A stretch of 63,344 nt of DNA, the filler included, from Conidiobolus incongruus B7586 (taxonomy: Eukaryota): the NCBI GenBank assembly GCA_000697335.1. It is 7 parts of 7 records of this genome, joined end to end, with 100 filler letters (N's around TTAATTAATTAA, not from the genome) between each part and the next. Parts side by side here need not be neighbours in the genome. Positions count along the whole stretch, not along the records: positions 1 to 6,923 come from JNEM01006173.1; positions 7,024 to 22,826 come from JNEM01006176.1; positions 22,927 to 25,278 come from JNEM01006178.1; positions 25,379 to 36,816 come from JNEM01006179.1; positions 36,917 to 54,049 come from JNEM01006183.1; positions 54,150 to 61,866 come from JNEM01006185.1; positions 61,967 to 63,344 come from JNEM01006192.1. The stretch is one strand, 5' to 3'. The notes below the pieces were generated by a model. The model saw nothing but the letters and a program-made list of their open reading frames with translations. It searched no databases and was not told where the DNA came from. A program made the translations under genes and the position numbers. This document shows positions 5,009 to 63,284 of the stretch, in pieces. The first letter of the stretch is position 1. Each line of letters begins with the position of its first letter.

Positions 5009-6581
5009 CACTAACCTACAAAAGTAAGTCATAAAATCAAAAACACCTATATTTTTACTAATAACTTAATTAATATTTAATGAAATAAACTTAAATTAAA
5101 TAATTAAAATCTATTATATTTATTAGTTATATATATCATTAAATGATGATATTTAGCTATTAATTGGTTAAAATATAAACCTTTAAATTTTACCTAAGGT
5201 GAGTTATAAATTTGTAGGTTTTTGGTGATAAAAAAAAATTAAAACCTAGTGTATCTACCTTTAGCTTTTCTAACTTCTTTAAGTTTGTGGGGTATAAAAT
5301 CAACTAACTTCTTACATTAAAAAGGGTTAATTTTGTTCTATACTTCTTAAATATATTTTTAAAGTTGATTTAAATTTTTTACTAGGGGGAAAACTTTAAT
5401 AACTTTTTTTAACTAATCCCAAAAGTATTTAATTAAATTAAAGTTAGGAGATTAAAAAAGCCACTTTATAACTGTTATCTTGTTATTTTTAAGTTATTTG
5501 GTAGTAGAAGTTGTAGTATAGCAAGAGGTATTATCTTACTAGAAAATAACATTAGATTTGTTTAACCTATATTATTCAATGGTTTTTTTCAATTTATTGT
5601 TTAGAATACTTTAGTACATTTCAGTATTAATTCCCCTATTAACTTTACAAAGATACTTTACACCTAAAGATAATATATATCCCTAAATAATAATTGACCC
5701 ACTATTATATTTTTAGGTAAAATTAACATAATAGTTACAAAGTAGTTTTGTATCTTTTCTAAAGTATCTAGCTTTTCTATTAAATCTACTAAGGTATATT
5801 ATTGTTTCATTAGATTAAATAACCTTACTGTAATTAGTTTCAATTTAACATTAGTAGCAACATTTAAACTCCCACCTAGTTTTATAGTGGGATTTCTTTA
5901 GTTAGGGGTGTTTTTTCTTAAAGTGTAAGTGGTATCCATGTTAATATAAAGCACATATAATAATATCAGTGTTAACTAATATTCCTGTATAGTTTTATAG
6001 TTCCTGTTGTATTTCTACAACAGTACTATATTTGCTTGTATTAACCAACCTACAAATATACTTCTTATTATGTTCATCTATAATCTTAACACATTTAAGT
6101 TTAGGTTTAAATGTTTCTTTATTGCTATTCTTAACAACTCTAGCTATAGTAAACTAACTAACACTAGTAATTCTAGCAATATTATGAGTTGATTTACCTT
6201 TTTTATAAAGTTGATTAATACACAAATAGATTTTTTTAGAGAGGGATTTAGGTATAATAATACTAATAAAAAAAATTTAGTATATCTATAAAATATTATA
6301 TAAAATAATAACAAAGAGAGAAAAAAGATATGATTATATATTGTTAAATATATCCCCTTATCTCAAAAACCCACAAATTTATAACTTACCTTGGTTAAAT
6401 ATTAAAGGTTAATATTTTTACTTATAGTTTACTAAATATATCTAAATATATTTATCTATTATTAAATAATATACCTTAATTATATATTATAGTTTTAAGT
6501 AATCTAATATATACAATTGTTTTAGTTATTAATTAAAAAATATATATTTTTGATTTTATAACTTACTTTTGTGGGTCAGTG
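5009..6581 (-). mobile_element. Tc1-family DNA transposon copy 1 (1573 bp), transposase pseudogene 6255-5239
   Basis: TIRs CACT(A/G)ACC(T/C)ACAAAAGTAAGT..., TA on both flanks (5007-8, 6582-3). A 339-codon frame with many stops retains degenerate VIWSDET, FQQDNA, WPPQSPDFNPIEHLW motifs and a KAKG..TRF* end. Confidence 0.92.
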
Positions 6582-6923
6582 TATTATAGTATATTAGCAC
6601 TAACTAATATAAATCTCAATATATCAGTGACTCATCCCAATTTGAAGCTTAATTAAACTTTGTTTACATTTGCACACTACAGCTATATTATAATATTATG
6701 TTTTGTGTCACACTACTTTTATATTAAGTTTTCCTTTATATTATATTAATACTTACTACCATGCTTATAAGTTTTATTAGAATTAATTTTATAGGAAATA
6801 AAAAATAAATTTATTAGGATATAATTCAAATAATTTAAATAAAATATAATAAAATATAGATTGTAGGAGAATTTAGTTAAAAAATATATAATATTAAATA
6901 TAAATATAATTAAATAATAATAA

Positions 6924-7023
6924 NNNNNNNNNNNNNNNNNNNNNNNNNNNNNNNNNNNNNNNNNNNNTTAATTAATTAANNNNNNNNNNNNNNNNNNNNN
7001 NNNNNNNNNNNNNNNNNNNNNNN
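6924..7023. other. Assembly gap with TTAATTAATTAA linker (also 22827-22926, 25279-25378, 36817-36916, 54050-54149, 61867-61966)
   Basis: Six 100-nt N-runs, each with the same central six-frame-stop 12-mer; true gap lengths unknown. Confidence 0.95.
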
Positions 7024-9291
7024 AATTAATTATATTATATAAGTTAATTTAAATTAGAATTAATTAAGTTATTAATAAGAGAATAAATGATTTGAATTTT
7101 ATACCTTATTTTTATAGCCTAATATATATTATATCTTTTATAATTATATAATATATATTAAACTAAGGAAATTAAATCAAATCATTTTATATAATAATAT
7201 AATTAAATTTGAAAAAAGATAATAACTTAATTAAATCATTTATATATTGATTTATCCTTAGTTTATTATATAACACATTTATAATTAATATTACCATTCT
7301 TAAAAATCTGATTAAATGATAATAAATATTTGATATTAATAGTTTTAGAAAATTACAATTAAATATTATATTTGAATATATTGGTAAAACCTTATATTTA
7401 TTAGAAATTCCTTATTAATTAGTATATTGAACTATGAAATATATCTTGTATTAAGGGTTTAGATTTAGATGTTTCAATAATATGATAATAGATTTATTGG
7501 TATGAATTACATATCAATTGAAAACAATGGAAATTCTAAATATTATAAATATGTATAAATTATTTTAAATCTTTTTAATTTTTTTTGTTGTTGGAGCTTT
7601 GTAATTAATTAAATGATATTGATTGTTAAACATAACGCAATACAAAAAATCAAACAAAAATATTTTGATATTTAAAATTTAATATCAAATAGTTAATATA
7701 TATAAAATTTTGTTGCTCAATCCTTTAATATTCCACTTATATACTGATAAAATAATTTAATAAATAACGAATCATTTCAAAGTATTACCAATGTTAGAAT
7801 ATATGTGCTAGAGTTTAGATGACACTAATATTAATAATTTATATTCATCTAATTAAGAGAGAGTTTCAACTAAAATAAAGAGTATATTGCAAACCTAATA
7901 AAAACTTAAAAATAAGATATAAACATAAGGATTTTAAGAAAAAATAATAGTTATGACACATAGTTAATAATGTCACTAAAACTAATATTATCAAATCACT
8001 AAAAATTATCCAATATTTGTTCAAAGATATCAAATATATTTATTTGATTGATTGAATTGAGAGCCCCGTTTATTATTAGATAGTTCAGTTATATTAATAC
8101 CTAATAATAAATTGCAGAATTACAGTCTATTCAATGAATGGATAACATTAAAATTAAAATTTAGTAGTGTAAAGGTTTCCAAATGAATGACAAACATAAA
8201 AAGCAATAATTGTTCTTTGGAAGATACTATGCTATGCAGCATTACTAATAAATATTTTAAGTATTTAAGTTAAATTTTAATTAAAATTTTACAAGAATAA
8301 TTTTAATAAATACTAAATTTTTAACCAATACTCTAACTTATTAGAATTACTGATCTCTTTATTGATGCTAAACCTATCATACTTTTTGGAATGTATAAGT
8401 TACATATGTAAATATCACTCTTTGGTTAAAATGTTATCATTTTAAATTAAAGTATGTTTTTAAAGGATTTAATTATTCGAGTAGATATCTAAATGAGGAG
8501 GAATGGGTATATGATTTAGTGTGTATTAATTATTTATAATATATATATATTATATCGAAATTTTTGTTAAATTTATCTATTTTTTAAATTGATTTATTTT
8601 TTAATTAAATAATTAAAATTTTAATCAATTAAATTTTTTGAATTTAATTTAATCAACTTTATCAATACCAGTTATTTATCAACTAAATAATATCATTAAT
8701 TTATTTATATGATTTAAATATTCCACTTATTTTAATCACAATTCATTATTTAACAATGTTAGATGTTGTTACATCCCTCAATTTTAAATGGTTTTAATTA
8801 AGATTTAATTCAAGAATATGTATAATTATTATAATAATCAATATAGGTCAAGGTTTTTTATGATAAAATATAGAATTATTAGTTTTTTTAAATCTATACA
8901 ATTAATAGTTTATAATAATAATTAGAATTTGAATCAATTTAAAAACCTTTATAAAAAATTGATTATTTTGAGTTTATCATTAATATTTATAGAAATATTT
9001 AAATATCGCTTATTTGAAATTTGAAGTACAAATGAGTAAATAATAATGATAAATTAAAATATTATGATATCTGGATATTGATAAATTGGATATTTTGAAA
9101 GATATAATGTTTTATAAATTTTAATTATGGTGTATTTATATCATTATCTCTCGGATATCAATAAAGGATAATTTTAATTTCGATCAATCTATTCAATCTT
9201 TAAAGTAACTAATATAAATATCAAATTAGTTAATAATATTACATTGATAAATATTGTTGATATTTAAAAACCTTCAAGTATCAAAATTTTA

Positions 9292-10780
9292 TTAATTATA
9301 ACATTCTTCAAAATAATTCCAATCATCGTGATCTTTAAGTAGTTTCAAATGTGTCAAATACTCATAAAAATTCACCAATTTGCAAGATCCTAAGGGGCAC
9401 CAAGAAGTCTTGAGGATTTCGCCATTGTAGATCATTCGCATTGCAAGCTGGTCGTTCTTGACCACAGTGTTATTCTTTTGAGGATTCCACACTTCAATAA
9501 TCAGATTGCTGGCGTATGGCGGCCAGTGGTTAATTTCAGCATCTAAGCCTCCTAAAAGAGGACCAAGTGTGGTGTCGTGGCCGGAGTAGATCTTGAATTT
9601 GGGATTAGGTGTATCATGCTCATTTTGGCGTTGATATACGATTTGTCGCTGGTTAACCAACTTGCCCAATCTGAAAACTTTATTAGGGAAAGTGTTCACC
9701 CTAAACAAATTATGGGCAATCTCATTCAAAACTGGACCAATTTGGAGACGTGTGAGCTTCCTGGAATTTTTACTTGCATTGAACCAGACCTTGGACTCTT
9801 CGTTAGCTGCATTCTGCAGCTCCATGAGTTCGTAATCCCCAAAGCAATCCTCACGATCCTCTTTGAAGCATAGGGGTGGCTGACCGTGGCAGCTTCGAGC
9901 TACTAAAGTATCAAGGAACCAAGCGGTCCAAAAGTTATCGTTGGAAACGTCATAATTTAAATGCTTTTGGAAATTCTTCCTCAAATGAGATGTCAATTTA
10001 AAGAAATTCTGGTACCTTGTAGATTTCTTGAACTTTTGCTCCAACTGTTTGAGATTGGGGCATGAGTTGCGGTTTGGATACAACGTTTCGATCTCCGCTG
10101 GAAACACCTCCATTCGGATCTTCGTGTCTTCGCCATTTTGGTGATTGGATGATGGGAAGAGCCCAGTCAGTAGTGAACTCACACTCTGTTGCGTGCGTTG
10201 GAGATCGCTACTACGTACATATAGATCATCTGCAGCTTTATCTAAAGTATCCGGTAAGAAATTCAAGTGGTCGACATATATCTTCTTCAATTGTTCGCCA
10301 ATCGATCGCAATTGAGTAATTCCTACTTGAGTTAATTGGCCCATATAACAACTTCCCTGCCATCTTAGTCCCTCAAGGGGACTGATGCTACAGTATCCCT
10401 TTTCAGAATCGCATATCGAAGGCGGGAAAGGCATACGAGGCAATACATGAAAATTGGGCTGATGAGATTCAATAGGACAGTCCCAAACATCCTTGTTTTG
10501 GAATTTTGGTGGTAACAGATGGACTGGTGAGCGGTCTCCATGACGATGGAATAACTGGACAGATAGTAGCTCACCTTCAGGGTACTAAAATACAAATTAA
10601 TAAAAGTTCAACTTTGGAAATTATTTTAGTGTTTACTAATGGCGAATAATTTTCAGCGATAGGAAAACCAGCTTGACAATAGTTATAACCTTTTTCCAGA
10701 ATATTACCTTCGTTACTAAAGTTCAATACTTCACCTCTTAATAGAGAAATTAACAACAAAATAAAATGATTCGATTTCAT
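9292..10780 (-). CDS. Secreted histidine acid phosphatase paralog 2; exons 10780-10637 and 10584-9292, 478 aa
   Basis: Signal-like MKSNHFILLLISLL; 52-nt intron 10636-10585 at the same position as in paralog 1 (..SPL|YPEGEL..); RHGDR, GQLT, RSSDLQRT and SGHDTT motifs. Confidence 0.92.
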
Positions 10781-14197: not shown

Positions 14198-14201
<4 letters not shown>

Positions 14202-14232: not shown

Positions 14233-14234
<2 letters not shown>

Positions 14235-21700: not shown

Positions 21701-21768
21701 GATTAATATTATCATTTACACTTTTTTACTAATCGCCAAATATACACTTTTAAATAATACAGTTATTT

Positions 21769-22101
21769 TGTCACGAGCCAGGTGACTCCCTTCTACTCAA
21801 GTATTCTTATATCAACCTAATGTTAAAGCCATTTCCCCCTCGCATACCATCTGCTCCAGCTGTATCTTTTAATTGACCGATGATGCAAGACACCAGAGAA
21901 CCTCATGAATCACCTTACCCAACTCACACTATATAAAATCCGGAATTAGAGCTATTCTCAAAAGGAGAGTTCTATCTTGGTCCTCCCAGCTATTGGACTT
22001 AAACCAATAAATCCCCCATCTCCCTGACACTTACCTGGAATTCACCAGATCTCTCACTTTTATTTAAACTATTCTGAACACGGCTTTCCCAAGGTGTATT
22101 A
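21769..22101 (+). mobile_element. Solo-LTR-like repeat, family A copy 1 (~333 bp)
   Basis: Begins TGTCACG; internal TATAAAA and AATAAA; aligns over its length to the reverse complement of 26612-26947. No clear TSD. Confidence 0.7.
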
Positions 22102-22931: not shown

Positions 22932-22962
<31 letters not shown>

Positions 22963-23887: not shown

Positions 23888-25278
23888 CACTGACCTACAA
23901 AAGTAAGTCATAAAATCAAAAACATTTATATTTTTACTAATAACTTGATTAATATTTAATGAAATAAACTTAAATTAAATAATTAAAATCTATTATATTT
24001 ATTAATAATATATATCATTATATGATGATATTTAGCTATTAATTGGTTAAAATATAAATACTTAAATTTTACCTAAGGTGAATTATAAATTTATAGGTTT
24101 TTGGTGATAAAAAAAATTAAAACCTAGTATATCTACCTTTAGCTTTTCTAACTTCTTTAAGTTTGTGGGGTATAGAATTAACTAACTTCTTACACTAAAA
24201 AAGGTTAATCCTGTTCTATACTTTTTAAACATATTTTTAAAGTTGATCTAAATTTTTTATTGAGGGGAAAGCTTTAATAACTTTTTTTAACTAATCCCAA
24301 AGGTGTTTAATTAGGTTAAAGTTAGAAGATTGAAGAAGCTATTTTATAACTATTATCTTGTTATTTTAAGCTATTTGGTAGTAGAAGTTATAGTATAGCA
24401 AGAGGCATTATCTTACTAGAAAATAACATTAGATTTGTTTAACTTATATTATTCAATAGTTTTTTCAATTTATTGTTTAGAATACTTTGGTATATTTTAG
24501 CATTAATTCCCCTATTAACTTTATAAAGATATTTTATATCTAAAGACAATATATATCTTTAAATAATAATTAACCTATTATTGTACTTTTGAGTAAAATT
24601 AACATAATAATTATAAAGTAGTTATGTATCTTTTCTAAAGTATTTAATTTTTCTATTAAATCTACTAAAGTATATTTTTGTTTCATTAAACTAAATAACC
24701 TTACTTTAATTAGCTTTAGTTTAATATTAGTAGCAATATTTAAACTCCCACCTAGCTTTATAATAGGATTTTTTTAGTTGGGGGTGTTTTTTCTTAAAGT
24801 ATAAGTGGTATCTATATTAATATAAAGTATATATAATGGTATTAATACTAACTAATATTCTTATATAATCTCACAATTCCTGCTATATTTTTATAATAAT
24901 ACTACATTTACCTATATTAACCAACTTATAAATATACTTCTTATTATGTTTATCTATAATTTTAACATATTTAAGTTTAAGTTTAAATGTGTTTTTATTG
25001 CTATTCTTAACAACCCTAGCTATAGTAAACTAGCTAACACTAGTAATTCTAGTAATATCACAAGTTGATTTATTTTTTTTATAAAGTTGATTAATATATA
25101 AGTAGATTTTTTTAGAAAGGGATTTAGGTATAATGATACTAATAAAAAAAATTTAGTATATTTATAAAATATTATATAAAATAATAACAAAAAGAGATAA
25201 AAAATATGGTTATATATTGTTAAATATATCCCCTTATCTCAAAAACCTGCAAATTTATAACTCACCTTAGTTAAATAT
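23888..25278 (-). mobile_element. Tc1 transposon copy 2, right end lost in gap
   Basis: TA|CACTGACCTACAAAAGTAAGTC TIR; colinear with copy 1 up to the gap. Confidence 0.92.
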
Positions 25279-26611: not shown

Positions 26612-26947
26612 TGGTAGCACGTCTTGGGAAAGCCGTCTCCAGAGTAGTTTTAATAAAAGTGAGAAATCTGGTGAATTCCAGGTGAGTGTTAGGAAGATAG
26701 GGGGTTTATTGGTTTAAGTCATATAGCTGGGAGGACCCAGATCGAACTCTCCTTTTTAGGATAGCTCTAATTCCGGATTTTATATAGTGTGAGTTGGGTA
26801 AGGTGATTCATGAGATTCACCGGTGACTTTCATCATCGGCCAATTAAAAAATAGAATGGGAGCAGATGGTGTGCGAGGGGGAAATGACTTTAATATAAGG
26901 TTGATGTAAGGATATTTGGGTAGAAGGGAGTCACCTGACTCGTGACA
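26612..26947 (-). mobile_element. Solo-LTR-like repeat, family A copy 2 (336 bp)
   Basis: On the minus strand reads TGTCACGAG...GTGCTACCA (TG..CA); homologous to 21769-22101. Confidence 0.72.
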
Positions 26948-29900
26948 ATAGAATAGCTTGGGAAGGATGATAAATTAAATTAATAATGAGTGAAACTAAA
27001 AAAGTTGAATATTTCTAATTGAGGAAATATAGCATCCTAATCGGAACCAGTATACTTTCAGTTTAGTCTTATTTGAATGAAATTGACCAAAAAAATTATA
27101 TCAAAGTGACTTAATGCGTGGTAAATTGAAATCTTAAACTTCAAAAACAGAATCTGGATGAAAGATTAGTTTATTTGATTTTATAATGTTGAATCAAAAA
27201 TTATTATTTTTAGAATGGTTATTTTATAATCTGAAATTAAAAAATGAAAAAAATTTAAATAATAATATTAAATAATGCACCAGTATTGACTTATTTTAGG
27301 CATATTTACTCTTTCAAAGATCATAAAAATAATTAAATTAATACAACATTTTCTAATAATATCTATCATATTCACTTTCCTAATTGTAAAAGGAGTATAA
27401 TAAGCATATGCAATTAATTGATAATGTTCGGTTTTAATTTTTTTCAAAATTTGAAAAACTAAATCTATGTAATGAATAATAAACTAAAGGAGCTATTGAA
27501 TTATCAAATTTAGGCTTTTGAACTATCAATATTAACTAATTACACAATATTGATATTCCAATTCAAAAGGTAGTAAATTTAGTTATATATAAAACATTGC
27601 ATGAAATACTGTATCAAAGCGAATATATAGATTTTTCCTTAATGTTGTTATTAAAAAGCGCTAATAGAATATCAATAAAATATTTTCAACTATCTCGAAT
27701 AAGGTTATTAGAATACATGTCACATTTCTTAAAATTATTTTTTATTACATTTCCAAACTTTAAAATATGAAGCTTAGTTGAATTGATGAAAAATAAATGA
27801 TTTTGACAACCACATTAATCAAAGTGACCTTATTTCAATAAAAGTTTCCAGTTTATCCCAAATTTGGTTATACAAATCGGTATTGATAAATTCCAGGTTT
27901 TATAATCTGACTCCGAATAATTAAATACATGTGGTTGAATATCTTGCACAAATATTGGATTGGTGAAAATAGGAATGTGGAATATTTTCATATGTTTGAT
28001 CAAGTATTATTTTTCATTGATTGTGAAGCACCGTATATTTCTTCCTATTATAGGTTAATTATACTCAGATTTCATTACAATTACTATATAATTGGTTTTC
28101 AAGACCTGTGGATAAAGATAAATGAAATTACTAAATTCTATTTATTGAATGTAAGCGAAAACTACTATAAATGGTAAGTAACTCCGATTATATGGTAGAA
28201 ATATTAAAATATTTAGTAACATGATAATAATGAAGCACCCAAGTTCGATTTTGTCTACTGGTAAGTGATTCATACCTGTATATTTTAAGGATTTCTATTG
28301 ACTATGCACATTCCCAAATTCAGATTATTTATTATCACAATTAGTTGATTCTAACCCGATTGTCATTATGAGTTTCACAAGAGACATAGTAGTCAAATCT
28401 ATTTATTTAATTGATATCAAGATTGATAAAATTTAAAAATAATATTAAGCCAAAAATTTGATTAATAGGTTTATTTATATGGGTTAAAATTTTAATCTAA
28501 GTTCAAAGCATAATCAATATACATATATGCAATATTGGTTTTATTCATATCTTTGGAAATATAATGTTAGAATATTATAGCAGAAGCTGGATCGTAATGA
28601 TATTGACATATTCTTTAAATACATTTTTTCATTAAAAGTTTGAAATTGTTAGCATTACTTACAAAAATAAATTTAAACATTTTAATTAATAATTGAACCT
28701 AATCAAAATCAATAATTTAATGAAAATATTAATTATATATATTCAGCAATCTTATAAAACTTACAGTGAAAATAATCAAGTATTATTATAAACACACAGA
28801 GATATCTTATGAAGTATATACTTATTATTAATTTAGTATTATATTCTAAAATAATTTCATTTATTTAATAAATATTTCAATTTTCTATAGATTTCATTAT
28901 ATTAGTTAGTTTATTATTAAATAGCAAAGTGAAAGATTGTTAATAGTATTTCACCATTATATAATTATTTACAGAAGATAATATGTAACTTATGGGTAAT
29001 TTTATTAGTTATTATTGAAATATATATTCATTTAATACTAAATAAATATATATTTCAGTTTAATGGGGTTATTCCAATTTTAAGAGTTAAGTATTATAAT
29101 TAAAAACAAATCTATTTAAATTACTTATAGATATAAAAATCTAGTATCCATATTATATATTAAAACACATAACTAGAATTCATATTATTAAATTTATATA
29201 TTACTAAAATAAATGAAATTAAAAAAATATGTTTGTTTGAGCATTAACAGATAAAATTTTCAATTAAATGCTATTGAATGCTAGTAAATACCCCCTTTTA
29301 AGGATCTTTCTACACAAAAATAGGGATATTAAATTATTGATTAGGATTAAGTAATTCAATTAGAAGATTTATAAATACATTGGGACATATTTCATGGTAT
29401 TAATGATGATTAGGATAATTGATATAATTAAATAATACAATGGTAATAAGCTTGGGATAAAATTATAAAGCTTTTGATTACCCAGTCATTTAATATTATT
29501 CATCAATATTTGAGAAATTGTAATATTGAATATTTAGTAAATTAGCGAAAGGAACATTAATAAAATTGAAATTAAAAATGCTATTTTTAAATATTTAACA
29601 CTATTAATATAAAATAATATATTTATTTTATCCATGAAATTTTATAATTTTTATGTTATATAAAATTATATTTATTTTAATCCAATAATACCCTCTAATT
29701 AGAAATTCGAGAAATTAAAAATGTATTTTTTCCATGAAATTTATATACAAAAAACAATACAAACATTACTGGTTCGTTACATTACCAAATTCAGCATCTT
29801 TTCAAGATAGTGGATTTGAATTTGGTAATAATTGATTTACATAGTGTTTTCGATCCAGATCTCTCGCAAATTTTTATTATATTAAATAATTTAATAAATT

Positions 29901-35120: not shown

Positions 35121-36690
35121 CACTAACTTGCAAAAGTGAGTCATAAAATCAAAAATATATATTTTTTAATTATTAACTAAAATAATTATATATATTAAAA
35201 TACTTGAAACTATAATATATAATTAAAGTATATTATTTAATAATAAATAAATATATTTAGATATATTTAGTAAACTATTAGCAAAAATATTAACCTTTAA
35301 TATTTAACTAAGGTGAGTTATAAATTTACAGGTTTTTAAGATAAAGGGATAAATTTAATAATATATAACTATATCTTTTTTCTCTCTTTGTTATTATTTT
35401 ATATAATATTTTATAAATATACTAAATTTTTTTATTAGTATTATTATACCTAAATCCCTCTTTAAAAAAATCTACTTATATATCAATCAACTTTATAAAG
35501 AAGGTACATTAATTTATGATATTATTAGAATTACTAGTGTTAATTAGTTTACTATAATTAAAATTATTAAAAATAGCAATAAAAAAATATTTAAACTTAA
35601 ACTTTAATGTATTAAAATTATAGATGAATATAATAAGAAGTATATTTATAGGTTAGTTAATATAAGTAAATATAATACTATTATAAAAATATAACAGGAA
35701 TTATAAGATTATATAAGAATATTAGTTAGCATTAATACTATTATACATATTTTATATTAGTATAGATATTATTTATACTTTAAGAAAAAACACCCATAAT
35801 TAAAAAAATCCCATTATAAAATTAGGTAAAAATTTAAATATTATAACTAATGTTAAACTAAAACTAATTAGAGTAAGGTTATTTAATTTAATAAAACAAA
35901 AATATACTTTAGTAAATTTAATAAAAAAGCTAGATACTTTAAAAAAGATATAAAATTACTTTGTGATTATTATGTTAATTCTACCTAAAAATACAATGAT
36001 AGGTTAATTATTATTTATACATATATGTTGTCTTTAGGTATAAGGTATTTTTATAAAGTTAATAGGGGAATTAATATTGAGATATGCTAAAATATTCTAA
36101 ACAATAAATTGAAAAAACTATTGAATAGTATAGGTTAAACAAATCTAATGTTATTTTTTAATAAGATAATATTTCTTGTTATACTATAACTTTTATTACC
36201 AAATAATTTAAAAATAACAAGATAATAATTATAAAGTAATTTCTTTAATCTTTAATTTTAATTTAATTGAATATCTTTAGGATTAGTTAAAAAAAGCTAT
36301 TAAAGCTTTTCCCCCAGCAAAAAATTTAAATCAACTTTAAAAATATGTTTAAGAAGTATAGAACAAGATTAACCTCTTTTTAATATAAAAGGTTAGTTGA
36401 TTCTATACCCCACAAACTTAAAGAAGTTAGAAAAGCTAAAGGTAGATATACTAGGTTTTAATTTTTTTTATCACCAAAAACCTATAAATTTATAATTCAC
36501 CTTAGGTAAAATTTAAAGGTTTATATTTTAACCAATTAATAACTAAATATCATCATTTAATGATATATATAATTAATAAATATAATAGATTTTAATTATT
36601 TAATTTAGGTTTATTTCATTAAATATCAATTAAGTTATTAATTAAAATATAAGTGTTTATGATTTTATAACTCACTTTTGCAAGTTAGTG
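35121..36690 (+). mobile_element. Tc1 transposon copy 3 (1570 bp), transposase pseudogene 35446-36461
   Basis: TIRs CACTAACTTGCAAAAGTGAGT at both ends, flanked by TA within TATATA runs; reverse complement of copy 1. Confidence 0.92.
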
Positions 36691-36916: not shown

Positions 36917-39087
36917 GATTCCTTGGGATTTAAGAAAACTTTATCAAATCCTCTTAATCTCTGGAATTCAGGTGAAATAGATCTGTAAATTTGGGTGGCA
37001 TACATGAGCACTGATTCAGCTCCTGGCATTGATCCTGTATTAGTAACAGTCACGCTCACATCAAGAGTGCTGTTAGGTTGGATTTGACTGCTAGACAAAG
37101 TAAGATCGGTGTAGTTGAAGGTAGTATATGACAATCCGTGCCCAAATTCCCATTGAGGATTGTAAGTATCACTGTATCTTCTATAGTTGTTAATGGTAGT
37201 CATACTGGCCTTATTAGTATAAGTAATAGGAAGCTTTCCGGAAGGGTTCACGTATCCATAGATGATTTCGGCGATAGCTTGACCACCTTCAGGTCCAACC
37301 AAGAAAGAAGTTAAAATTGCAGATGGAAGATCAGCCACATTATCGAAGACTCTAGGGCGTCCTTGAGAAAGTACAAGGATGAGAGGTTTGTTAGATTTGG
37401 CAAGGAGCTTGACAAGATCGAGTTGACCTTCTGGAAGACGCATATCGTCAATATTACCAATAAGTTCTGCATAGTTACGCTCTCCAAGACACACTACATT
37501 GACATCGCTGAAGCTGGCAGCACCAGAGATTTGCTCAGGAGAAGTATTGTTTAGCCACTTTCCTTCAATATCTACGCTGGGTAAATAGCTAATATTATTT
37601 CCACCAATCTTCTTAAGTCCTTGAAGTATAGTAGTTCCCCGACCCTCAAAGAAATCTTCACGGATTGCTCCATTCCAGTTCGAAGCACCCTGCCATGTGA
37701 AAGTCCATCCACCAGTTAAATAGTTGAGACTGTCAGCGCAAGGGCCAGTTAAGAATAACTTAGTACTGGGTTTAAGGGGAAGGACTTTGTTACGATTCTC
37801 CAAAAGTATCACTGACTCTCTAGCCATATTTAGGGATGCGGCACGATCTTCAGCACGACCAATAGTTTTAATAAGTGGTGAACTGGGATCAACTTGACCA
37901 TCAGATCCGAGCAAGCCAAGCTTGTATTTAAGTTCAAGAACCCTCTTAACATTTTGATCAATAGCTTTAGCTGGAACACGACCAGATCTGACCAGTGAGA
38001 CCAACATTTCAAAGAACTCACCATTGTATGGAACCATACTAACATCAATAGTTCCCAATTTCATTGCCATCACTAATGAATCGTTTAATGATTTGGCAAC
38101 ATGGTGCTGTGAGTGGAGTTTGAAAATCTGTTCAAAATCAGTTACTAAAGCGCCTTTGAAACCCATTTGCTCTCTAAGCAAATCCACCAATATTTCTTTG
38201 CTCTTGACAGCATGGTTACCGTTGATATCAGAGTAAGATTCCATAGCAGTTGCAATACCAGTGTCAACCAAAGCCTGAAATGGAGGCACAAAATATTCAT
38301 CTAAAATCCTCTTAGACATCCAAGATCCATCAACATCGTGTCCAGATCTTGAGTTGGAGTATCCGATGAAGTGTTTCATTGTACCAGCTACCTTGTCTCC
38401 TCGCTTAAGATCACATACACTTTCACCTTGGTAGCCCAAGACGACTTCCTTACCAAGTTCTCCAGCAACATATGGGTCTTCTCCAAAAGTTTCGTAAATA
38501 CGTGGCCACTGTTTGTTTACAGCAATATCAGCAAGTGGGCTAAAATTCCAATGTACACCAACCGCTCTTGTATCTTTGGCAGTGATCTCACCAAATATAC
38601 GTGCAGCAGTTCGGTTGAAGGTGGCACCCATACCAATCTGCTGAGGAAATAGGGTAGCTCCACGAACGTAGTTAGCACCGTGGACTGAATCAAGACCAAA
38701 TATCATAGGAATCTTGAGACGAGTATTTTTCTGGATATAATCTTGGATTTCGTTCATGACTCGAACCCAAGTAGCAGGATCGGCACAGTTGAGATCAGTA
38801 CCATCGGACAAATTATTAAGAAATGATCCTGCAAGTCGTTGTTTGATGTAATAGTCTAATTGAGTTGTATTCAACTTTCCGCTATTGGCGTCGTATAGCT
38901 TATTTATATTGATTTGAGTTAATTGTCCGACTTTTTCTTCAAGAGTCATAGAAGCCATAAGTGCGCCAACTCTAGCGCTCATTTGTGATTCGAATTGTCT
39001 TGTATCACATTTTGCATTGCTTGGACTTTGTGCATAGATGCAAGATATTAAAAGAAGTGTCAATTGTGAAAAATATCCTGACAACAT
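36917..39087 (-). CDS. Secreted GH3 beta-glucosidase A (3' end in gap)
   Basis: Signal peptide, MTLEEKVGQL, GLDSVHG, WPRIYETFGEDP, KHF, LVTDF nucleophile motif, VCLGE, PSGKLP, FGHGLSYT and Fn3-like tail. Confidence 0.93.
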
Positions 39088-40361
39088 TGCGAATTATTTA
39101 TAATATGTATTGAGTAATTTTACCTGAGTTTAAATAATAAAATATTAATTAAAATAAATATATTAAATAAATTTTTGATTGTTATCACTTAGCTAAGTGA
39201 AGCTTAATTTCAATGAATTAATTCTTTTTATACTTTGATTAAAATATCATCCAAACTAAAGTTCTATATTCAATTACATCATTTTAACTATTAAATGTAA
39301 ACAAAGCGGCCATACTATATTTATTATAACATTACTAGTAACAAACCTTGCGTATTGTCATATTGTCTTTGCTTAATCCTAAGAAATACTTCCGCTCAAA
39401 ATCCTAAATTGGTTAGCACATTAATTATAATTAACTATTCATGAGTGTTAAAATTTAGCAGAATTAATTTTGGTGTTTAGTGGAATTTAATTTTAATTCA
39501 GGGTTAACCATGTGGTTTTTTGTTGACATTCCATTCACCCAGTCACAATTCTATATTTGGAAATTGTCCATCATCAATTGAATTTTCTAATAATTTTAAT
39601 AGAAAAATTGATTTCAGTATCTGATGGAATAGATATGGTTTTTTACAAATTTAATAAAAATAAATTATAATTATTCAATAAGATCATATGTAGCATATTG
39701 CTCCTTATATATTTTTAACAATGTCCCTTGAAACCGCTATTAATGCAATTTAATAAAATTTAATCTATTAACATTTTATATTGTCGATTTTTCGTAAAAA
39801 TATAAAAATCAGAGTAAATTGTATATATAAATATAAATATATTTACTATTTAATATAAAATTATAAATTTAACTTTAAAAATTTTAAAGAATATTAAACA
39901 TCCCAAAAAATTTCATTGGTTAAATAAGATTTATGAAAACAAATATTCATATCCAATTTGATGCCAAAATATGTTTTTATTAATTCTTTTTTATTTAGTA
40001 AAAGTGAATAATGATATTTTTATTCATCACTTTAACATGGTATAATAGTGATTTAAATTTAAAAAATCAGCATCTATTTTATAATTTATTCAGTATTGAA
40101 AAATTATTTCAGTTAAAATATTTTATATTATTCCTATTAAGTGTTTACTGATATTTTACAATTTTCTAGATAAATTTATCATTTAAATTCACGAATACAC
40201 ATTTACTTAATTTCATTAAGAATTAAATACACTTTCATGTCAATATATAACAAACTAAATTTTATTTCAATATATAAAATTAGTATACCTCTAATACTGA
40301 ATTATAATTCATATTATATTGAAACATAATAATTAGAGTAATAATTATCATATATCTCAGA

Positions 40362-52509: not shown

Positions 52510-53950
52510 TTTATAATTGTTAATGTATTAAAAGTTTGAATTGATTGAATTTTCTTATACTAAATGATTGTCGTTTATATATTATATCAACAATATAATT
52601 TGATCATTTTTACATAATTTCTGATATATTCTTTATTTTGAAATCAAATTAAACTTGAATAATGTATTATTTGTTTGCATATCGAATATTTTTGGACTAA
52701 TGATTTTTACAACAAATATCTAATATGTTGTGTATTTTTAGTTATAAATTATTCGTTAGAGATATAGCCACATATTGAAATTTTTCACATTTTAAATTAC
52801 AAACAATACAGTAACAATTATATTATACTACATACACTGAAGTGGAATTAATCAATATTGATCAGTTTAAATCAACAAAGATGCCAAATAACTATATCAG
52901 TTGAATGTTACTAATATGATATTCAACCTAAATTAGTAAATTTACTATTTTTTTAATTTTATGCCAAAGCCAATTCATTTTATTTTTCTAATAAAACCAT
53001 TAAATTAAATCAGATATTACAATATTCTTTTACTTTTACAGATACTTCAAAGTTAGATTTTAATTATACTATATAAAACTCTACAATATAGTAGTTGTAT
53101 TGTAATTCAATGACTAAATATTAGTCTATTTAATAATTAATTGTAAATATAATAATAAAATAATAATATGATGTTTTATATTCTTTCAAAGTATAAATTA
53201 TTTGTTGAAATATTTTTGAATAAAACTATAGCACCAAATGAATGTTTAATCTTGATATGTATTATTTAAATATAGTTTATAATCATACTGATTTCAATGA
53301 AATGATTTATACAAGTTTATTTGAACAGCTTTGAGCTATTAACTTGGAATATAGCTGAACTTTTATTTAACCAATAAATAATATTATCTATAAAACAGTT
53401 TTAATATAAATGATTTGAATTAAATCTCTTTATATTATTAATTTAATAGATTATTTAAAAAGATATAAATCAACATAAAAATAGAATATTTGATATTACT
53501 CTATATTTTTAATAATGGGAATTTTTTGCAATTAAAAATAAATTAATATTTTAATATATAATATATCAAAATAAATATATAATATAAGTTTAATAGTTTC
53601 TTTTATTATTAATTACTTTTTATTATATTTTTAACAAAGATTTAATATTTAAAAAATAGTTTTTTTTATTAAAGACTAAAATTTGATATTTTATAAACCA
53701 ATTAAATTTTTTTATAAAAATTTTCTTTTTTATAAGCTAGTTTTTTAATTATCTAAAGTAATTATAATTATATAAATTATAATTTAAAGAGTATATTAAA
53801 AATAGTAGTTTTTTCCAGTTATTTTTAATTAGAAAGTTTTTTATAGTTTTAAATTTATATATTTTATAATTATTATATAAGTTAATAAGTTTTTTCAAAT
53901 TATTTAAAAAATACTAATTTGAAATACTTTTATTTAAAAAAAACCATATA

Positions 53951-54049
53951 TATTAGCCTATAAAAGTGAGTTATAAAATAAAAATCACTTATATATTTAC
54001 CTATAACTTAAACAATTCTTAACTAAATTAATTTAAATTAAAGTATATA
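53951..54049. mobile_element. Terminal fragment of a related Tc1 element, cut by gap
   Basis: TA|TATTAGCCTATAAAAGTGAGTTATAAAAT matches the family TIR by transitions; the following sequence resembles the subterminal region of copy 1. Confidence 0.65.
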
Positions 54050-54149
54050 NNNNNNNNNNNNNNNNNNNNNNNNNNNNNNNNNNNNNNNNNNNNTTAATTA
54101 ATTAANNNNNNNNNNNNNNNNNNNNNNNNNNNNNNNNNNNNNNNNNNNN

Positions 54150-57609: not shown

Positions 57610-59348
57610 TATTATTCAAAATAAAATAATAATTGTTTGGTATTAAAAAAATGGATTAAAATATTATATATATGTGTGTGTATATTAATTAATTATTATT
57701 TGCTTTTTCTTATTAAATAAATTATTTAAATGATTGATATAATTAAAAAATATAAAGATTTAAAATGAGTAATCAAGAATTAAATTTCAAAAAATAAAAT
57801 AAAATTAATGGGGAAATTAAAACGGTATTGAATTACTCGGAAAAATTTCTGGTAATTTAATGCTGTTTCAATATGATCTGGTTTTCATAATTTTTTCTTT
57901 GTCAATACCTTAATATTTGTTAGTTATTGTTTTCAATTAGTTGAATTGATTATTTATTAATATTAAATATTAAATATATTATGAAATACAATAGTTTTAT
58001 TTTATTTGTTCGGTATATGTTAAATTATTCTCATATATCAAATTTTAAAATCTAAAACCTATATATTGCAGTTGTGAAATTGAATATAAAATAATATTCA
58101 TTTGATCTTTTATGAGTTCTTCCATTATAAGGAGTAAAATATCATTATCATTTATTTTATTTTTATATCTCATTATCCTGATAATTATATCTAAATTCAT
58201 ATTAATCAAATTCCATAGAATATATCATTATATTAATGAAACAGATTTAATGTATTAATTATCCTTGTTCTTTGAGATACCTTTATTAATATTTTTATTG
58301 TCCTATCATTAAATAACAAATAATGATATAAGTTCCTTTTGATATATCTTTCACGAAATCAATTATATTACTTGATATATAATTTATCAATAGGCACTAT
58401 TTAATATCAATATGAGAAAAATAATTAATTGACCGATATTTTACATTAAAAAAATCTAGATTTTCAATTTAACTTATGTTGATTAAATGATTAATTGCTG
58501 TATGTTAAGTATTTTTACATATATAGTTGAAATATGGGCTTTGGAGAATTATTTTGAATCTATGAAATTGAAAAAGCTATTATTATATCTTAAATATTAC
58601 AAAAACTATTTTTAATCATATTTCTTGAATAATCCAATCCATCAATCAATTTTAACTGGACATGTTCTAATAATTGTTCAGTATCGTATAAATAAATTAT
58701 TAAGGCAAAACAATGATATTGAATAGTTATTTATGATTATAAAAAATTCATAATATAACAGAATTTGGAGGTCATAACCAACTGATAATCTGTATGATTT
58801 AACCATGATAATATTGAAATTATTGTGATTATATTTAAATGGTTTTGCCATATGTGGCGGTATCGCAATAGGTGCCAATTTTCGAATTTGAAAAAAAGAC
58901 TTGGAAGATTTTGAAAATCAGTGTGTAAAAATCACCTTTATAACTATTTGTGCTCAAACGATTAAATTTACTCAATTAATTTTCACAAGTTTCATTTATT
59001 TTATTGATATATATAGATTTGAAAGAAATTAAATTGCATATTAATTTAAATATATATTTTCAATACAAAATAAGATATTCAATTAAATATTTATTTTTAT
59101 TAAAGGATTATTATAATCATAATATTGTCATGAAAAGATATAGATATTTTTAAAAGATAGAAGAATGCTTATTAGTTATCCTATGATAAAAACTATCAAT
59201 TAATTAATTAATGAACATAAAAATAATATGGTAATAGAGCTATGATATGATAATATTGAGAATTGATAATTTATTTAAAAATCTGTTACCTCGGAAGAAA
59301 GTAGACAAAAGTTAATAGCAATTCAGTCAATTAACTGATAATATCAAA

Positions 59349-59639
59349 TCAATACCTCTAAATAACTTCTCCTCTAGGCCCCCTAGCCATATTAAGAAGT
59401 TTTTCATTATATAATAACAATAATAATAATATTAAAGGTATAAAATTAATTTGCTACAATTCAGCAAGAACTTGTGCTTTATCAGCATCAATCTTCTAAA
59501 CTTCAACGTGAAGATGTTTTTCCGAGAATTGTTCAATAAAAGGGGTGATAGCCTGGCAAGAGCCACACCATTCGGCATAGGGGTGGCAGGAGACTGGCGA
59601 ATCAAGGAACTCTTTGTATATAGTTATTTTTGTTATTAT
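59349..59639 (-). pseudogene. Thioredoxin pseudogene
   Basis: One frame reads YAEWCGSCQAITPFIEQFSEKHLHVEV*KIDADKAQVLAEL*QINFIP...; WCGSC at 59570-59556; three internal TAG; probable start ATG>ATA at 59639. Confidence 0.8.
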
Positions 59640-61966
59640 TGTGATTATGAATAGTTTTTGAATGATGTTGAGTTGATGAGTTCTAAATATTTATATTCAT
59701 TTTTACCCAGTTTTGAAACATAAATTTAGTTTTTATGATATTTTCTGAATATTTTATCAATACCCAATTGTATTATTTAACATAAATACTGAATTCTTGC
59801 AAATTTTATTCAAAATATTGTAATTTATGATGGATTTATTCAAATGTTGAACTAAATTATATCATAAATTCAACAACTATTTTTGGATTATTGATTGCTA
59901 TCAATTTTGACTATATTTCATCATATTTTGGGATGATTTTGAAAATATTTAAATCTGAACCAAATAACAACCATTATATATAAAGAACTATCAGGATCTT
60001 AACTCAGCAAAGAGATCTTGGCACTCATTTGAAAAAATCATTAATTCCGTATATGATTAATTAAAAATGATTATTTATTAGTGGATGAAGTCTTGTTATC
60101 GTAAGGGCAGATTAAATTTTAAATCGTTATATCTCATAATGCGATCAATAATTTTCAAAAGAATATCAGCTTATATAGTTAGATTGTTACTTTGAAATAT
60201 ATACTTAAAGGGAATAAATTACAAATAAGTATGAATCTCGGATTGATAGGAGTCTGTGACGGTAATAAACTGCGATATTATTCTAATTTGTAAGCATTTT
60301 ATTATAGGACTTTCACCACGCAATATTTGATCCATTAGATCACTTTGTTAAACAAACACTCATCCTCAATTATAGAAAAACAATTTGAAAGGAACTTTGA
60401 TTATTGATAACTTCGTATAATAATGAAATGTTCAAGAAGGGTGATTATTTTTGGTAGAAAGTTGATATAGCCTTTTAATAGCTTATGAATGATATTTATT
60501 AATATAATTTTGATTATTCAGTGATTGTCGACTATCAGTCATGCTGATAATTTCGATTCAATTGAAGAGATTAGTTCATTATGGATTATTAGAATTTGAT
60601 TAATTTTCATTGATCTAAAGAAGTAAGCTTTTAAGTTATTTATTAATGAAAATTAGTATGTGTGAACAAAAATTAAGAAAAAAACATTCAATTAATTTAA
60701 TAAGATTTAAAAGTTGCAACTTCAAATCACAATTCTTCAAAGGTGAAATTTTACTTTGTCATGATTAAATTAGATATTGATGAATTCTGATATATTAATT
60801 TAACCTTTGTCAGTCAAAAATACACATGATTAATAATACAAAATAAATTTATATTATATAGAATATATTATTAAAAATCAAGTTTTATTGTCTATAATAT
60901 TGGAGCATAAAATCATTAATAGTAACTAGATTGATTGATAATTATGTCTCTAACCTTGTATCACTAATATCTAAAAAATAATGCATAAGCAAAAATTTTT
61001 ATTATAAAATTTAATAAATAATAAACATGCCAAGTATTAAATCTTATACCTAATAAAATATCAATTTAGCTTATTTTAAACATTGTTATATTATCCTTTG
61101 GTAATCAGATTGATTGAATTATAGTGACTAGCTATGGATTTATTAATTATATTTAAGTTAATTGCCTTTAATAGTTAGAAATAATTAGAAAATAGTGTTA
61201 AAACACGAAAATATTATAGTTTTATAATTTAAATATTACCTTAGAATTGAAAAATGGGAAATTTTTTAATTTATAATGTTTTAAATATATTATAAGCTTT
61301 AGAACATTTATATTCAAAATAAATAGGATAATATATATATATAAAATGTTTTTTCATTAAACAATTAACTATTATAATGTTATAATTGAATTAATCATAT
61401 CAAAATTAAATAGTGATTATCAAAAGTTCTTTATTTTTGTATTTATAAAATTTTAATAATTATTTAAAAAATAAAAATAAGTTTCAAAAATAATATATTT
61501 TAAATCAACTATTAATTATTAGGCAAATTATTTTAAAACTAAAAAGTAACTTATAACATGTTCAAATTTATAAAATAATTTTAATTATTATTATTCTTAA
61601 TTATCAATAAAGCGATAAAATATATTCAAAATATATCTTTATAGTTTTTTAAAAAGTTATCAAAATAATTTAATATTATTTATATAAGTATTTTATACAA
61701 ATATATTATTATTATTATTTTATAAACTTAAATTAATTAGTAACAATATAAAATTAATATCTTATAATTAATTAAGGTTTCAAAAAGGCTGGTATAGTCA
61801 AAATCAAATAATATTTATCAAAATATAATTAAAAACCAAAGTTATTATTATTGTTTATTATAATAANNNNNNNNNNNNNNNNNNNNNNNNNNNNNNNNNN
61901 NNNNNNNNNNTTAATTAATTAANNNNNNNNNNNNNNNNNNNNNNNNNNNNNNNNNNNNNNNNNNNN

Positions 61967-63284
61967 CCATGTCTTTTTTCTCTATTTGCTATTATTTTAT
62001 ATAATAATTTATAGATATATTAAATTTTTTTATTAGTATCATTATACTTAAATCCCTTTCTAAAAAATTCACTTATATATTAATTAATTTTATAAAAAAG
62101 ATAAGTCAACTTATAATATTATTAGAATTACTAGTGTTAGCTAGTTTACTATAGTTAAAGCTATTAAGAATAATAATAAAAATACATTTAAACTTAAATT
62201 TAAGTATGTTAAAATCATAGATAAATATGATAAGAAGTATATCTATAGGTTAGTTAGTATAGATAAATATAGTATTATTATAAAAATATAGCAAGAACTA
62301 TAAAACTATGTCAAAATATTAGTTAGCACTAATATTATTATATATGCTTTATATTAGTATAGTTACCATTTATACTTTAAGAACAAACACCCTTAATTAA
62401 AGAAATCCCATTATAAAGTTAGGTAAGAATTTAAATATCATTATTAATATTAAATTAAAACTAAATGAAATAAAGGTATTTAATCTAATAAAACAAAAAT
62501 TTATTTTAGTGGTTTTAATAAAAAAGTTAAATATTTTACAAAAAATATAAAACTACTTTATAACCATCTTATTAATTTTATCTAAAAGTATAATAATAGA
62601 TTAATTATTGTTTTAAGATATATATTGTCTTTAAGTGTAAAATATCTTTATAAAGTTAATAATGGAATTAATATTAAGATATATTAAAATATTCTAAATA
62701 ATGAATTAAAAAAATTAAATGATATAAGTTAAATAAATTTAATATTATTTTTTAACAAGATAATATTTCTTGTTATATTATAACTTTTATTATTAAATAA
62801 CTTAAAAATTACAAGATAATAGTTATAAAATAGTTTTTTAAATCTCCTAATTTTAATCTAATTAAACACCTTTAGGATTAGTTAAAAAAAGCTATTAAAG
62901 CTTTCCCCCCAATAAAAGTTTTAAATCAACTTTAAGAATATATTTAAGAAGCATAGAAGAAAATTAACCCTTTTTAGTGTAAGAAGTTAGTTGATTCTAT
63001 ACCCTATAAACTTAAAGAAGTTAAAAAAGCTAAAGGTAGATACACTAGGTTTTAATTTTTTTTATCACTAAAAACCTACAAATCTATAACTCACCTTAGG
63101 TAAAATTTAAGTATTTATATTTTAACTAATTAATAGCTAAATATCATTATATAATGATATATATTATTAATAAATATAATAGATTTTAATTATTTAATTT
63201 AAGTTTATTTTATTAAATATTAATTAAGTTATTAGTAAAAATATAAGTGTTTTTGATTTTATGACTCACTTTTATAGGTTAGTG
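61967..63284 (+). mobile_element. Tc1 transposon copy 4, left end lost in gap
   Basis: Colinear with copy 3; ends ACTCACTTTTATAGGTTAGTG|TA. Confidence 0.92.

What the first reader, a model, noticed from the sequence alone, without database searches (positions are those of the whole stretch)
5009..63284. RIP-like C-to-T hypermutation of every Tc1 copy, probably in an early-diverging fungus
Seen: the four colinear copies (5009-6581, 23888-25278, 35121-36690, 61967-63284) differ almost only by transitions; by eye 14 of 14 differences in 5241-5400 vs 24119-24278 are C/T or G/A, indels are rare, and I saw no CpG in copy 1. Conserved codons are hit on both strands: ATG>ATA start in all four, TGG>TAG/TAA, CAA>TAA, CAT>TAT, (T)GAT>(T)AAT, mostly CpA>TpA with some CpT/CpC. 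Known: this is the signature of repeat-induced point mutation of Neurospora and other Pezizomycotina, with RIP-like patterns in some basidiomycetes. Inference: the host looks like a zygomycete-grade fungus, so this may be an uncharacterised repeat-directed mutator.
Basis: partly seen in the sequence, partly recalled or inferred. Interest (0 to 1): 0.88.

Follow-up and report, generated by a model that had tools for sequence, protein, structure and literature searches.

The report
RIP-like transposon hypermutation outside Dikarya
In a Conidiobolus-like mould, from a fungal branch thought to lack this defence, four copies of a jumping gene have had cytosines changed to thymines on both strands at about ten to thirty times the local background, likely by a methyltransferase-linked mutator aimed at transposons, which would extend RIP-like genome defence to early-diverging fungi.

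Summary
Four Tc1 copies (85-90% identical) differ by 130-168 transitions against 8-29 transversions per pair and hold no CpG in 5,848 bp. An intact homologue fixes the direction as C>T/G>A (77 against 11). Per transversion, CpA mutates 17-33 times and CpT 8-16 times faster than in a control repeat, while CpC stays near background. At least ten inferred ancestral CpGs are gone in every copy. Both strands are hit equally. The host is close to Conidiobolus coronatus (GH3 80% identical), in Zoopagomycota. Plain AT drift and CpG-only deamination are excluded. It is not shown to be RIP: a linked 2.2-kb GH3 gene duplicate with a 458-bp identical tract and a 326-bp LTR-like pair are untouched, there is no robust strand clustering, and no genome was held to look for RID or DIM-2. 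Best reading: a chromatin-guided, DNMT-coupled mutator of high-copy transposons (about 0.5). Rivals are pairing-based RIP (0.25) and passive deamination of dense 5mC (0.17). In print I found only an index-level hint in Zoophthora; a 2025 kingdom-wide screen calls such signatures unique to ascomycetes, and its k-mer test stays below threshold on these copies.

The parts
5009..6581 (-). Tc1 copy 1, full length, about 215-bp imperfect terminal inverted repeats, flanked by TA; transposase relic on the minus strand (about 5236-6255) with 20 internal stops and no frameshift
23888..25278 (-). Tc1 copy 2, cut by a contig gap; 20 stops in the copy-1 frame plus frameshifts
35121..36690 (+). Tc1 copy 3, full length, opposite orientation; 25 stops
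61967..63284 (+). Tc1 copy 4, cut by a contig gap; 23 stops; most private transversions (17)
53466..54042 (.). Older Tc1-related relic with a terminal-repeat fragment on the GH3 contig; 0 CpG, GC 11%, RIP indices 1.16/0.59; partner relic at 23295-23762
7026..7220 (.). Older Tc1-related terminal-repeat fragment
4797..5008 (.). Left part of a second high-copy element into which copy 1 inserted (right part about 6582-6748); other copies differ from it mostly by transitions at the listed places
   Evidence: depth, joint 5006-6582, loose ends
36917..39093 (-). Negative control: GH3 beta-glucosidase copy A, cut by a contig gap
45758..48118 (+). Negative control and host marker: GH3 copy B, 87.6% identical to copy A with a 458-bp identical tract, no RIP-like signature
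21768..22093 (+). Negative control: 326-bp LTR-like repeat, copy A (the LTR label is my inference from its TGTCAC end; no Rfam match)
26623..26948 (-). Negative control: 326-bp LTR-like repeat, copy B
676..1974 (-). Histidine acid phosphatase on the same contig as copy 1; named hits are Mortierellaceae and a chytrid, none is Dikarya; paralogue at 9292-10584

Best explanation
The four Tc1 copies carry a transposon-confined C-to-T hypermutation on both strands, with CpG lost entirely, CpA hit more than CpT, and CpC nearly spared; it is likely made by a cytosine methyltransferase of the DNMT1/DIM-2 type that would be guided to high-copy transposons by silent chromatin rather than by pairing of any two similar sequences. 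Shown: the spectrum, its direction, its context, its confinement to the Tc1 family and probably a second high-copy element, and the death of the transposase. Inferred: new insertions become heterochromatic; the enzyme attacks C in CpG, CpA and CpT on both strands; the C ends up as T through enzyme-assisted deamination or unrepaired T:G mispairs; this repeats over many generations, while dead copies with usable ends may still be moved in trans. Duplicated host genes in active chromatin would be spared.
For: Multiple-hit-corrected C>T distance per transversion is 82-159 at CpA, 39-76 at CpT and 3-16 at CpC in the six Tc1 pairs, against 5, 3 and 7 in the LTR-like pair and 3, 4 and 2 in the GH3 pair. 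Ti/Tv differs from the LTR-like pair (p 1e-5 to 9e-3) and from GH3 (p 2e-16 to 2e-9). Direction: 77 against 11 at polymorphic codons, and 68 against 3 where no copy keeps the homologue's residue. Both strands are hit alike in each copy: 53/43, 71/53, 94/81, 88/75. All three incompatible four-taxon splits are well filled (33, 25, 21 sites), so the same sites were hit repeatedly. Across the family, contigs of one sample show 397 transition against 23 transversion places in run X1. The GH3 pair is on one contig, 6.7 kb apart, with a 458-bp identical tract holding 9 CpG and indices 0.88/1.20. Precedent: Dim2 drives C>T at CpA in repeats during mitosis in Zymoseptoria (PMC8016269, passages); DIM-2 is reported in Phycomyces and methylates all CpN (PMC13297926, passages); the entomophthoralean genomes studied carry PF00145 genes (PMC11105155, passages).
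Against: No methyltransferase gene or 5mC was seen, because no genome is held. The Zymoseptoria Dim2 mutator hits CpA in more than 98% of cases and spares CpG, unlike this spectrum. The LTR-like pair is probably transposon-derived yet is spared, which a length threshold for pairing explains more simply. Mutation tapers towards the ends (CpA 0.29-0.38 near the ends, 0.55 inside), which fits pairing as well. 5mC is described as scarce in Zoopagomycota (PMC11258239, passage). The GH3 control is under selection, and its identical tract ends at a contig break, so it could be an assembly collapse.
Confidence: 0.5

Rival explanations
1. True RIP or a convergent equivalent: homologous repeats above a size threshold are recognised by DNA pairing around zygospore formation and mutated by a RID-like or other methyltransferase.
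For: A CpA plus CpT signature was tied to RID-bearing ascomycetes such as Magnaporthe, Botrytis and Sclerotinia (PMC4352252, passages). The Tc1 copies pass the stringent RIPper thresholds (1.28 and 0.61, against >1.15 and <=0.75). The 326-bp pair is below the roughly 400-bp minimum of Neurospora RIP (threshold recalled, not from a call). Mutation tapers at the element ends. Copy 1 has 74% of its Trp/Gln codons turned to stops but only 2 private transversions in 1,393 sites. C. coronatus has 0 repeats of 1 kb at 95-100% identity and 555 at 80-95% (PMC12543289 supplement; assembly collapse is an alternative cause).
Against: The linked GH3 duplicate shows no trace even at synonymous sites (32 transitions and 43 transversions at 294 four-fold sites), and relatives also carry two GH3 paralogues. 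RID/Masc1 homologues were found only in Pezizomycotina and a few Taphrinomycotina and Agaricomycotina (PMC5751038, passage). There is no robust strand clustering: 2 of 8 same-strand tests reached p about 0.02, uncorrected.
Confidence: 0.25
2. Passive decay: transposons are densely methylated in all contexts, and 5-methylcytosine deaminates spontaneously with poor T:G repair. No dedicated mutator is involved.
For: The order CpG > CpA > CpT > CpC matches the usual preference of DNMT side activity (own knowledge). Both strands are equal and unclustered. C>T load rises with private transversions (0.23, 0.32, 0.42, 0.44 against 2, 2, 9, 17; rho 0.95, p 0.05, n = 4).
Against: The excess at CpA is 17-33 times the control, above the roughly tenfold typical of fully methylated CpG (recalled), and it would need near-complete non-CpG methylation. 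Measured non-CG methylation in Phycomyces is 0.5-0.9% genome-wide. The load is far from proportional to age.
Confidence: 0.17
3. A cytidine deaminase (APOBEC/AID-like) edits the elements.
For: The changes are C>T only.
Against: Specificity lies 3' of the C, not 5' (sites polymorphic: ApC 0.60, TpC 0.71, CpC 0.51). Both strands are equally hit, and Tc1 has no long single-stranded intermediate (own knowledge).
Confidence: 0.03
4. Genome-wide AT-biased drift, an assembly artefact, or contigs from a contaminating ascomycete.
For: The window is 24% GC and is made of contigs joined by N linkers. Copies 2 and 4 lie on short contigs with no host gene seen. The phosphatase on copy 1's contig has no named Conidiobolus hit. 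Short-read copies may be mosaics.
Against: CpC inside the same elements mutates near the background rate. Other non-coding DNA has indices 0.88/1.37 and CpG o/e 0.66. Independently assembled contigs of the reads show the same spectrum and very high family depth against 30-33 for a single-copy flank contig (one sample). Copy 1 shares a contig with a phosphatase whose named hits are non-Dikarya, and a family relic lies on the Conidiobolus-like GH3 contig.
Confidence: 0.05

Closest known systems
Repeat-induced point mutation (RIP) of Neurospora and other Pezizomycotina, especially the CpA+CpT signature of Magnaporthe, Botrytis and Sclerotinia (PMC4352252, passages)
   Same: Dense C:G>T:A on both strands of transposons, CpA and CpT hit, CpC spared, positive RIP indices, transposase killed at Trp and Gln codons.
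   Different: The host is in Zoopagomycota; CpG is also wiped out; a linked 2.2-kb gene duplicate is untouched; RID and premeiotic timing are not shown.
Dim2-dependent mitotic C>T mutator of Zymoseptoria tritici (PMC8016269, passages)
   Same: Methyltransferase-linked C>T in transposon regions at non-CpG sites, with no need for sex.
   Different: There more than 98% of changes are at CpA and CpG is spared; here CpT is a major target and CpG is lost. No dim2 gene was seen here.
RIP-like TpCpG/CpG hypermutation of Pucciniomycotina (PMC3318451, passages)
   Same: Repeat-associated C>T outside Pezizomycotina, with CpG loss.
   Different: Most visible events here are non-CpG, with no strong 5' preference.
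Index-level RIP signal in Zoophthora radicans (24.2% of windows) and low values in Entomophthora, Entomophaga and Massospora (PMC11105155, passages)
   Same: Same order of fungi; the same suggestion that RIP may act outside Dikarya.
   Different: In the passages read, that work used a composite dinucleotide index only, with stated caveats. Here there are aligned copies, direction, context and internal controls, in a different genus.
Tc1/mariner transposases of the Sleeping Beauty type (PDB 5cr4; Pfam HTH_Tnp_Tc3_2, DDE_3)
   Same: Colinear DDE transposase with long terminal inverted repeats and TA target (E 4.9e-28; both Pfam hits just below the gathering cut-off).
   Different: All four copies are dead; the nearest intact representative (P0128, unnamed) is 39% identical to mutated copy 1.

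Membership tests
RIP (Pezizomycotina) | Excess C:G>T:A transitions in repeats, on both strands | tested here: met
RIP (Pezizomycotina) | Dinucleotide preference led by CpA; RIP indices above stringent thresholds | tested here: met
   CpA > CpT >> CpC; indices 1.28/0.61; CpG is also lost
RIP (Pezizomycotina) | Acts on any long, similar duplication, including linked host genes | tested here: not met
   GH3 pair untouched. One case only, under selection, and the identical tract may be an assembly collapse.
RIP (Pezizomycotina) | Strand-coordinated clusters from single rounds | tested here: inconclusive
   2 of 8 same-strand tests at p about 0.02, uncorrected; saturation and mosaic assembly could hide clusters
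RIP (Pezizomycotina) | Depends on RID/Masc1 | not testable with these tools
   No genome held; the survey read places RID almost only in Pezizomycotina
RIP (Pezizomycotina) | Premeiotic timing | not testable with these tools
   Needs progeny sequencing
Dim2 mitotic mutator (Zymoseptoria) | C>T almost only at CpA, CpG spared | tested here: not met
   CpT 8-16 times control; 0 CpG left against >98% CpA
Dim2 mitotic mutator (Zymoseptoria) | dim2 gene, 5mC on the mutated regions, action in mitosis | not testable with these tools
   No genome or methylome
Pucciniomycotina TpCpG hypermutation / plain CpG deamination | Changes confined to CpG or TpCpG | tested here: not met
   118 of 136 CpA and 118 of 186 CpT sites polymorphic with an invariant 3' neighbour
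Tc1/mariner (IS630-Tc1) | DDE transposase with HTH, terminal inverted repeats, TA target duplication | tested here: met

The most novel reading that the evidence does not exclude
Entomophthoralean fungi run an active, RID-independent RIP-like mutator with its own target code (CpG, CpA and CpT, not CpC) that destroys high-copy transposons while sparing duplicated host genes. It would be either a convergent invention or a survival of the ancestral DNMT1/DIM-2 activity from which RIP arose, placing mutagenic genome defence before the origin of Dikarya.
Probability: 0.5. Interest if true: 0.9.

Novelty: new variant of a known kind. Interest (0 to 1): 0.76.

Why it matters
Whether RIP-like mutagenic defence exists outside Dikarya is open. 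Stajich et al. 2024 wrote that RIP had been observed only in Dikarya and offered an index-level hint with major caveats. Badet and Croll 2025 concluded that ascomycetes are unique and scored C. coronatus 'no_rip'. This window gives alignment-level, polarised and internally controlled evidence in a Conidiobolus-like fungus. It also shows why a k-mer screen can miss the process in an AT-rich genome: the eight AT-rich k-mers listed for C. coronatus are enriched only 1.03-1.47-fold in these copies, below the 2-fold cut-off. If it is confirmed, a culturable zygospore-forming fungus becomes a model for asking which enzyme mutates repeats without RID, whether sex is needed, and how gene duplicates escape.

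Tried and rejected
No whole genome is held, so the search for RID, DIM-2, DNMT1/5 and deaminases, and a genome-wide copy alignment, could not be done. The word-based protein search with the broken transposase found nothing (715 candidates, none at E <= 1e-10). The terminal-repeat pattern had 0 matches in metagenome contigs. The GH3 scan of metagenomes gave 19 loci at 30-41% identity, none a close relative, and none was used. Viral contigs gave 17 pattern hits and 0 confirmed. No RNA holder was listed; this is no evidence on expression. The Rfam scan of the window found 0 matches. Strand-clustering tests were inconclusive. A binomial estimate of sites mutated in all four copies (7% for CpA) is contradicted by the homologue comparison (68 of 337 aligned codons), so per-copy rates from the four-copy alignment are underestimates. 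Bewick et al. 2019, the main survey of fungal DNMT repertoires, is not held; it may say which DNMTs Conidiobolus has. The supplements of bioRxiv 2025.06.16.659975 and the Zenodo data of PMC11105155 and PMC12543289 were not seen and may hold per-genome RIP or DNMT values for this genus. PMC12019607 and PMC8105982 gave nothing usable. Four look-ups of earlier findings gave none on this genome or genus.
Full report
1. Observation. Self-comparison of the window finds four colinear copies of a 1.57-kb element at 85.2-89.9% identity with 3-9 gap positions. The terminal motif marks 5009-6581, 23888, 35121-36690 and 63284 (6 matches, 0.00 expected). The window is seven contigs joined by N linkers, and copies 2 and 4 stop at such gaps. 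Over whole copies, transitions/transversions are 130/8, 166/14, 168/23, 143/15, 152/19 and 156/29. No copy has a CpG; 34-50 would be expected. RIP product and substrate indices are 1.28 and 0.61 in the copies, 0.88 and 1.37 in other non-coding DNA, and 0.72 and 1.33 in ORFs. The stringent RIPper limits are >1.15 and <=0.75 (PMC7882544, passage).

2. The element. Read with X at stops, copy 1 gives one frame of about 340 codons. It matches HTH_Tnp_Tc3_2 and DDE_3 (E 3e-7 and 5e-5, both just below the curated cut-off) and Sleeping Beauty transposase (E 4.9e-28). The best of 3,766 representatives is an intact, colinear, unnamed 338-aa transposase, P0128 (E 3.5e-69, 39%).

3. Direction. At polymorphic codons where one allele matches P0128, the matching allele is the C/G one in 77 cases and the T/A one in 11, with 18 other. 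Of 337 aligned codons, 162 keep the homologue's residue in at least one copy; of the rest, 68 are reachable from it only by C>T or G>A, 3 only by the reverse, and 104 by neither. All 10 Trp and 5 of 9 Gln of the homologue align with a stop in at least one copy. Stops make up 74%, 66%, 89% and 81% of the Trp/Gln-type codons.

4. Context. With the 3' neighbour invariant, polymorphic sites are 118 of 136 for CpA, 118 of 186 for CpT and 3 of 26 for CpC; the 5' base matters little. The stops confirm this independently: 56 TAA, 29 TAG and only 3 TGA, as expected if the CpC of a Trp codon's reverse strand is cold. CpG existed in the ancestor. Five columns show CA in one copy and TG in another, and ten codons where P0128 has Arg now read Cys, His, Tyr or stop in all copies, which implies CGN codons (inference). 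Host genes use CGN for 40 of 68 Arg codons; the copies use none. After correction for multiple hits, C>T per transversion is 82-159 at CpA, 39-76 at CpT and 3-16 at CpC. Each copy is hit on both strands (53/43, 71/53, 94/81, 88/75), all three conflicting splits are common (33, 25, 21), and there is no robust strand clustering. Mutation is lower near the ends than inside.

5. Controls. A 326-bp LTR-like pair is older by transversions (13 of 326) yet shows 23 transitions, keeps 5 and 7 CpGs and has no context bias (6/35 CpA, 5/43 CpT, 10/43 CpC); its pooled C>T per transversion is 4.8. The inverted GH3 duplicate, on one contig 6.7 kb apart, shows 159/114 overall and 32/43 at 294 four-fold sites, CpG o/e about 0.6, and a 458-bp identical tract with 9 CpG. 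The Tc1 pairs differ from both controls (p 9e-3 to 2e-16). These are two cases; neither is a single-copy pseudogene, and the gene pair is under selection. Older AT-rich relics (23295-23762/53466-53941 and 2-385/61249-61595) have Ti/Tv below 1 but about 10% GC, no CpG and nearly every remaining CpA or CpT site variable, which fits exhausted targets.

6. Genome-wide check. Four runs of one sample hold 86-87% of the sampled words of 600-6600. Laid on 4600-6860, about 30,000-39,000 contig pieces per run match. In X1 the variable places are 397 transitions and 23 transversions, and the other three runs are alike (40 of 445 places were printed). The family is therefore high-copy and transition-dominated beyond this assembly. 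Depth is not a copy number, and these runs may be the window's own source, so they are not independent support. They also show copy 1 sitting in a second high-copy element.

7. Host. GH3 copy B is 80-81% identical to two C. coronatus proteins and 53-55% to Entomophthora, Massospora and Neoconidiobolus proteins. I read this as a Conidiobolus-like species distinct from the sequenced C. coronatus strain; no tree was built. The four large copies are not on the GH3 contig, but a family relic is. Copy 1 shares a contig with a phosphatase whose six hits are two unnamed JGI proteins, three Mortierellaceae and a chytrid. Copy 3's contig shares the LTR-like repeat with the contig of the second phosphatase.

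8. Mechanism. Shown: a transposon-confined, context-specific, two-stranded C>T excess. Generic AT drift is excluded because CpC in the same elements runs near background. CpG-only deamination is excluded because most visible events are at CpA and CpT. A deaminase is unlikely because the specificity is 3'. Inferred: a C5-methyltransferase is the agent. The spared linked gene duplicate points to chromatin guidance (0.5). The spared short repeat, the end taper and the speed fit pairing-based RIP (0.25). Passive decay of dense 5mC (0.17) needs near-complete non-CpG methylation. The large class of sites mutated in all four copies means either hot sites or descent from an already damaged copy moved in trans; this is not resolved.

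9. Literature. [quoted passage not shown] PMC12543289 (abstract, sections 8 and 9, passages, supplement rows): signatures unique to ascomycetes, C. coronatus 'no_rip'. My approximation of its k-mer ratio gives 1.03-1.47 on these copies, below its 2-fold cut-off; that paper did not list this species among the Conidiobolus rows I saw. bioRxiv 2025.06.16.659975 (passages): RIP-proficient taxa almost exclusively ascomycetes. PMC8016269, PMC4352252, PMC3318451, PMC5751038, PMC7862722, PMC13297926 and PMC11258239 were read as passages. Ten full-text searches listed no alignment-level description of RIP-like mutation in Conidiobolus or other Zoopagomycota; the library lacks most subscription papers, including Bewick 2019. 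RIP's length threshold and the tenfold figure for methyl-CpG are recalled, not from a call.

10. Verdict. The feature is real and far beyond chance. It works like RIP in outcome but is not filed as RIP, since one defining feature was tested and not met and two could not be tested. It is a new variant of a known kind, in a phylum where recent surveys say it is absent. Interest 0.76.

Noticed in passing
window 4797-5008 and 6582-6748: Copy 1 is nested in another high-copy, AT-rich element of about 380 bp; read contigs join 5006 to 6582 without the Tc1. Its left part holds a 70-bp imperfect palindrome at 4844-4913.
   Followed up: partly
window 36917-39093 and 45752-48118: Inverted GH3 pair with identical tracts of 458, 186 and 143 bp in otherwise 87.6% identical genes, suggesting ongoing gene conversion. 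C. coronatus and an unnamed JGI relative also have two such paralogues.
   Followed up: partly
window 45758-48115: After the Entomophthorales hits, the GH3 relatives mix Mucorales, Mortierellaceae and Bacteroidota (Mucilaginibacter) at 40-44% identity; the gene is intron-free. An old bacterial origin is possible; no tree was built.
   Followed up: no
window 21768-22093 and 26623-26948: 326-bp repeat, 42% GC, starting TGTCACGAG, probably solo LTRs; not hypermutated; no Rfam match.
   Followed up: partly
window 676-1974 and 9292-10584: Two intron-free histidine acid phosphatase paralogues in the same orientation.
   Followed up: partly
window 54094-57615: Multi-exon formin on the minus strand (GBD, proline-rich FH1, start of FH2 cut by a gap).
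   Followed up: no
window 30354-31052: Zn2Cys6 transcription factor on the contig of copy 3.
   Followed up: no
window 49149-49385 and 51904-52341: Two similar short minus-strand ORFs with no Pfam match for the one scanned, possibly a further tandem gene pair.
   Followed up: no
window 59432-59690: Thioredoxin-like exon with a WCGSC motif, recognised by eye.
   Followed up: no
alignment columns 141-194 of the four copies (terminal repeat): Copies 2 and 4 share three transversions only in this part of the terminal repeat, suggesting a subfamily, recombination or a mosaic assembly.
   Followed up: no
P0128 cluster: An intact relative of the transposase has 14 unnamed members, most on contigs of about 1,194 bp, so a closely related family appears active in some other organism.
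   Followed up: no
window 6924, 22827, 25279, 36817, 54050, 61867: Six 100-base gaps each carry the artificial linker TTAATTAATTAA between runs of N; contig order and distances across them are not guaranteed.
   Followed up: yes
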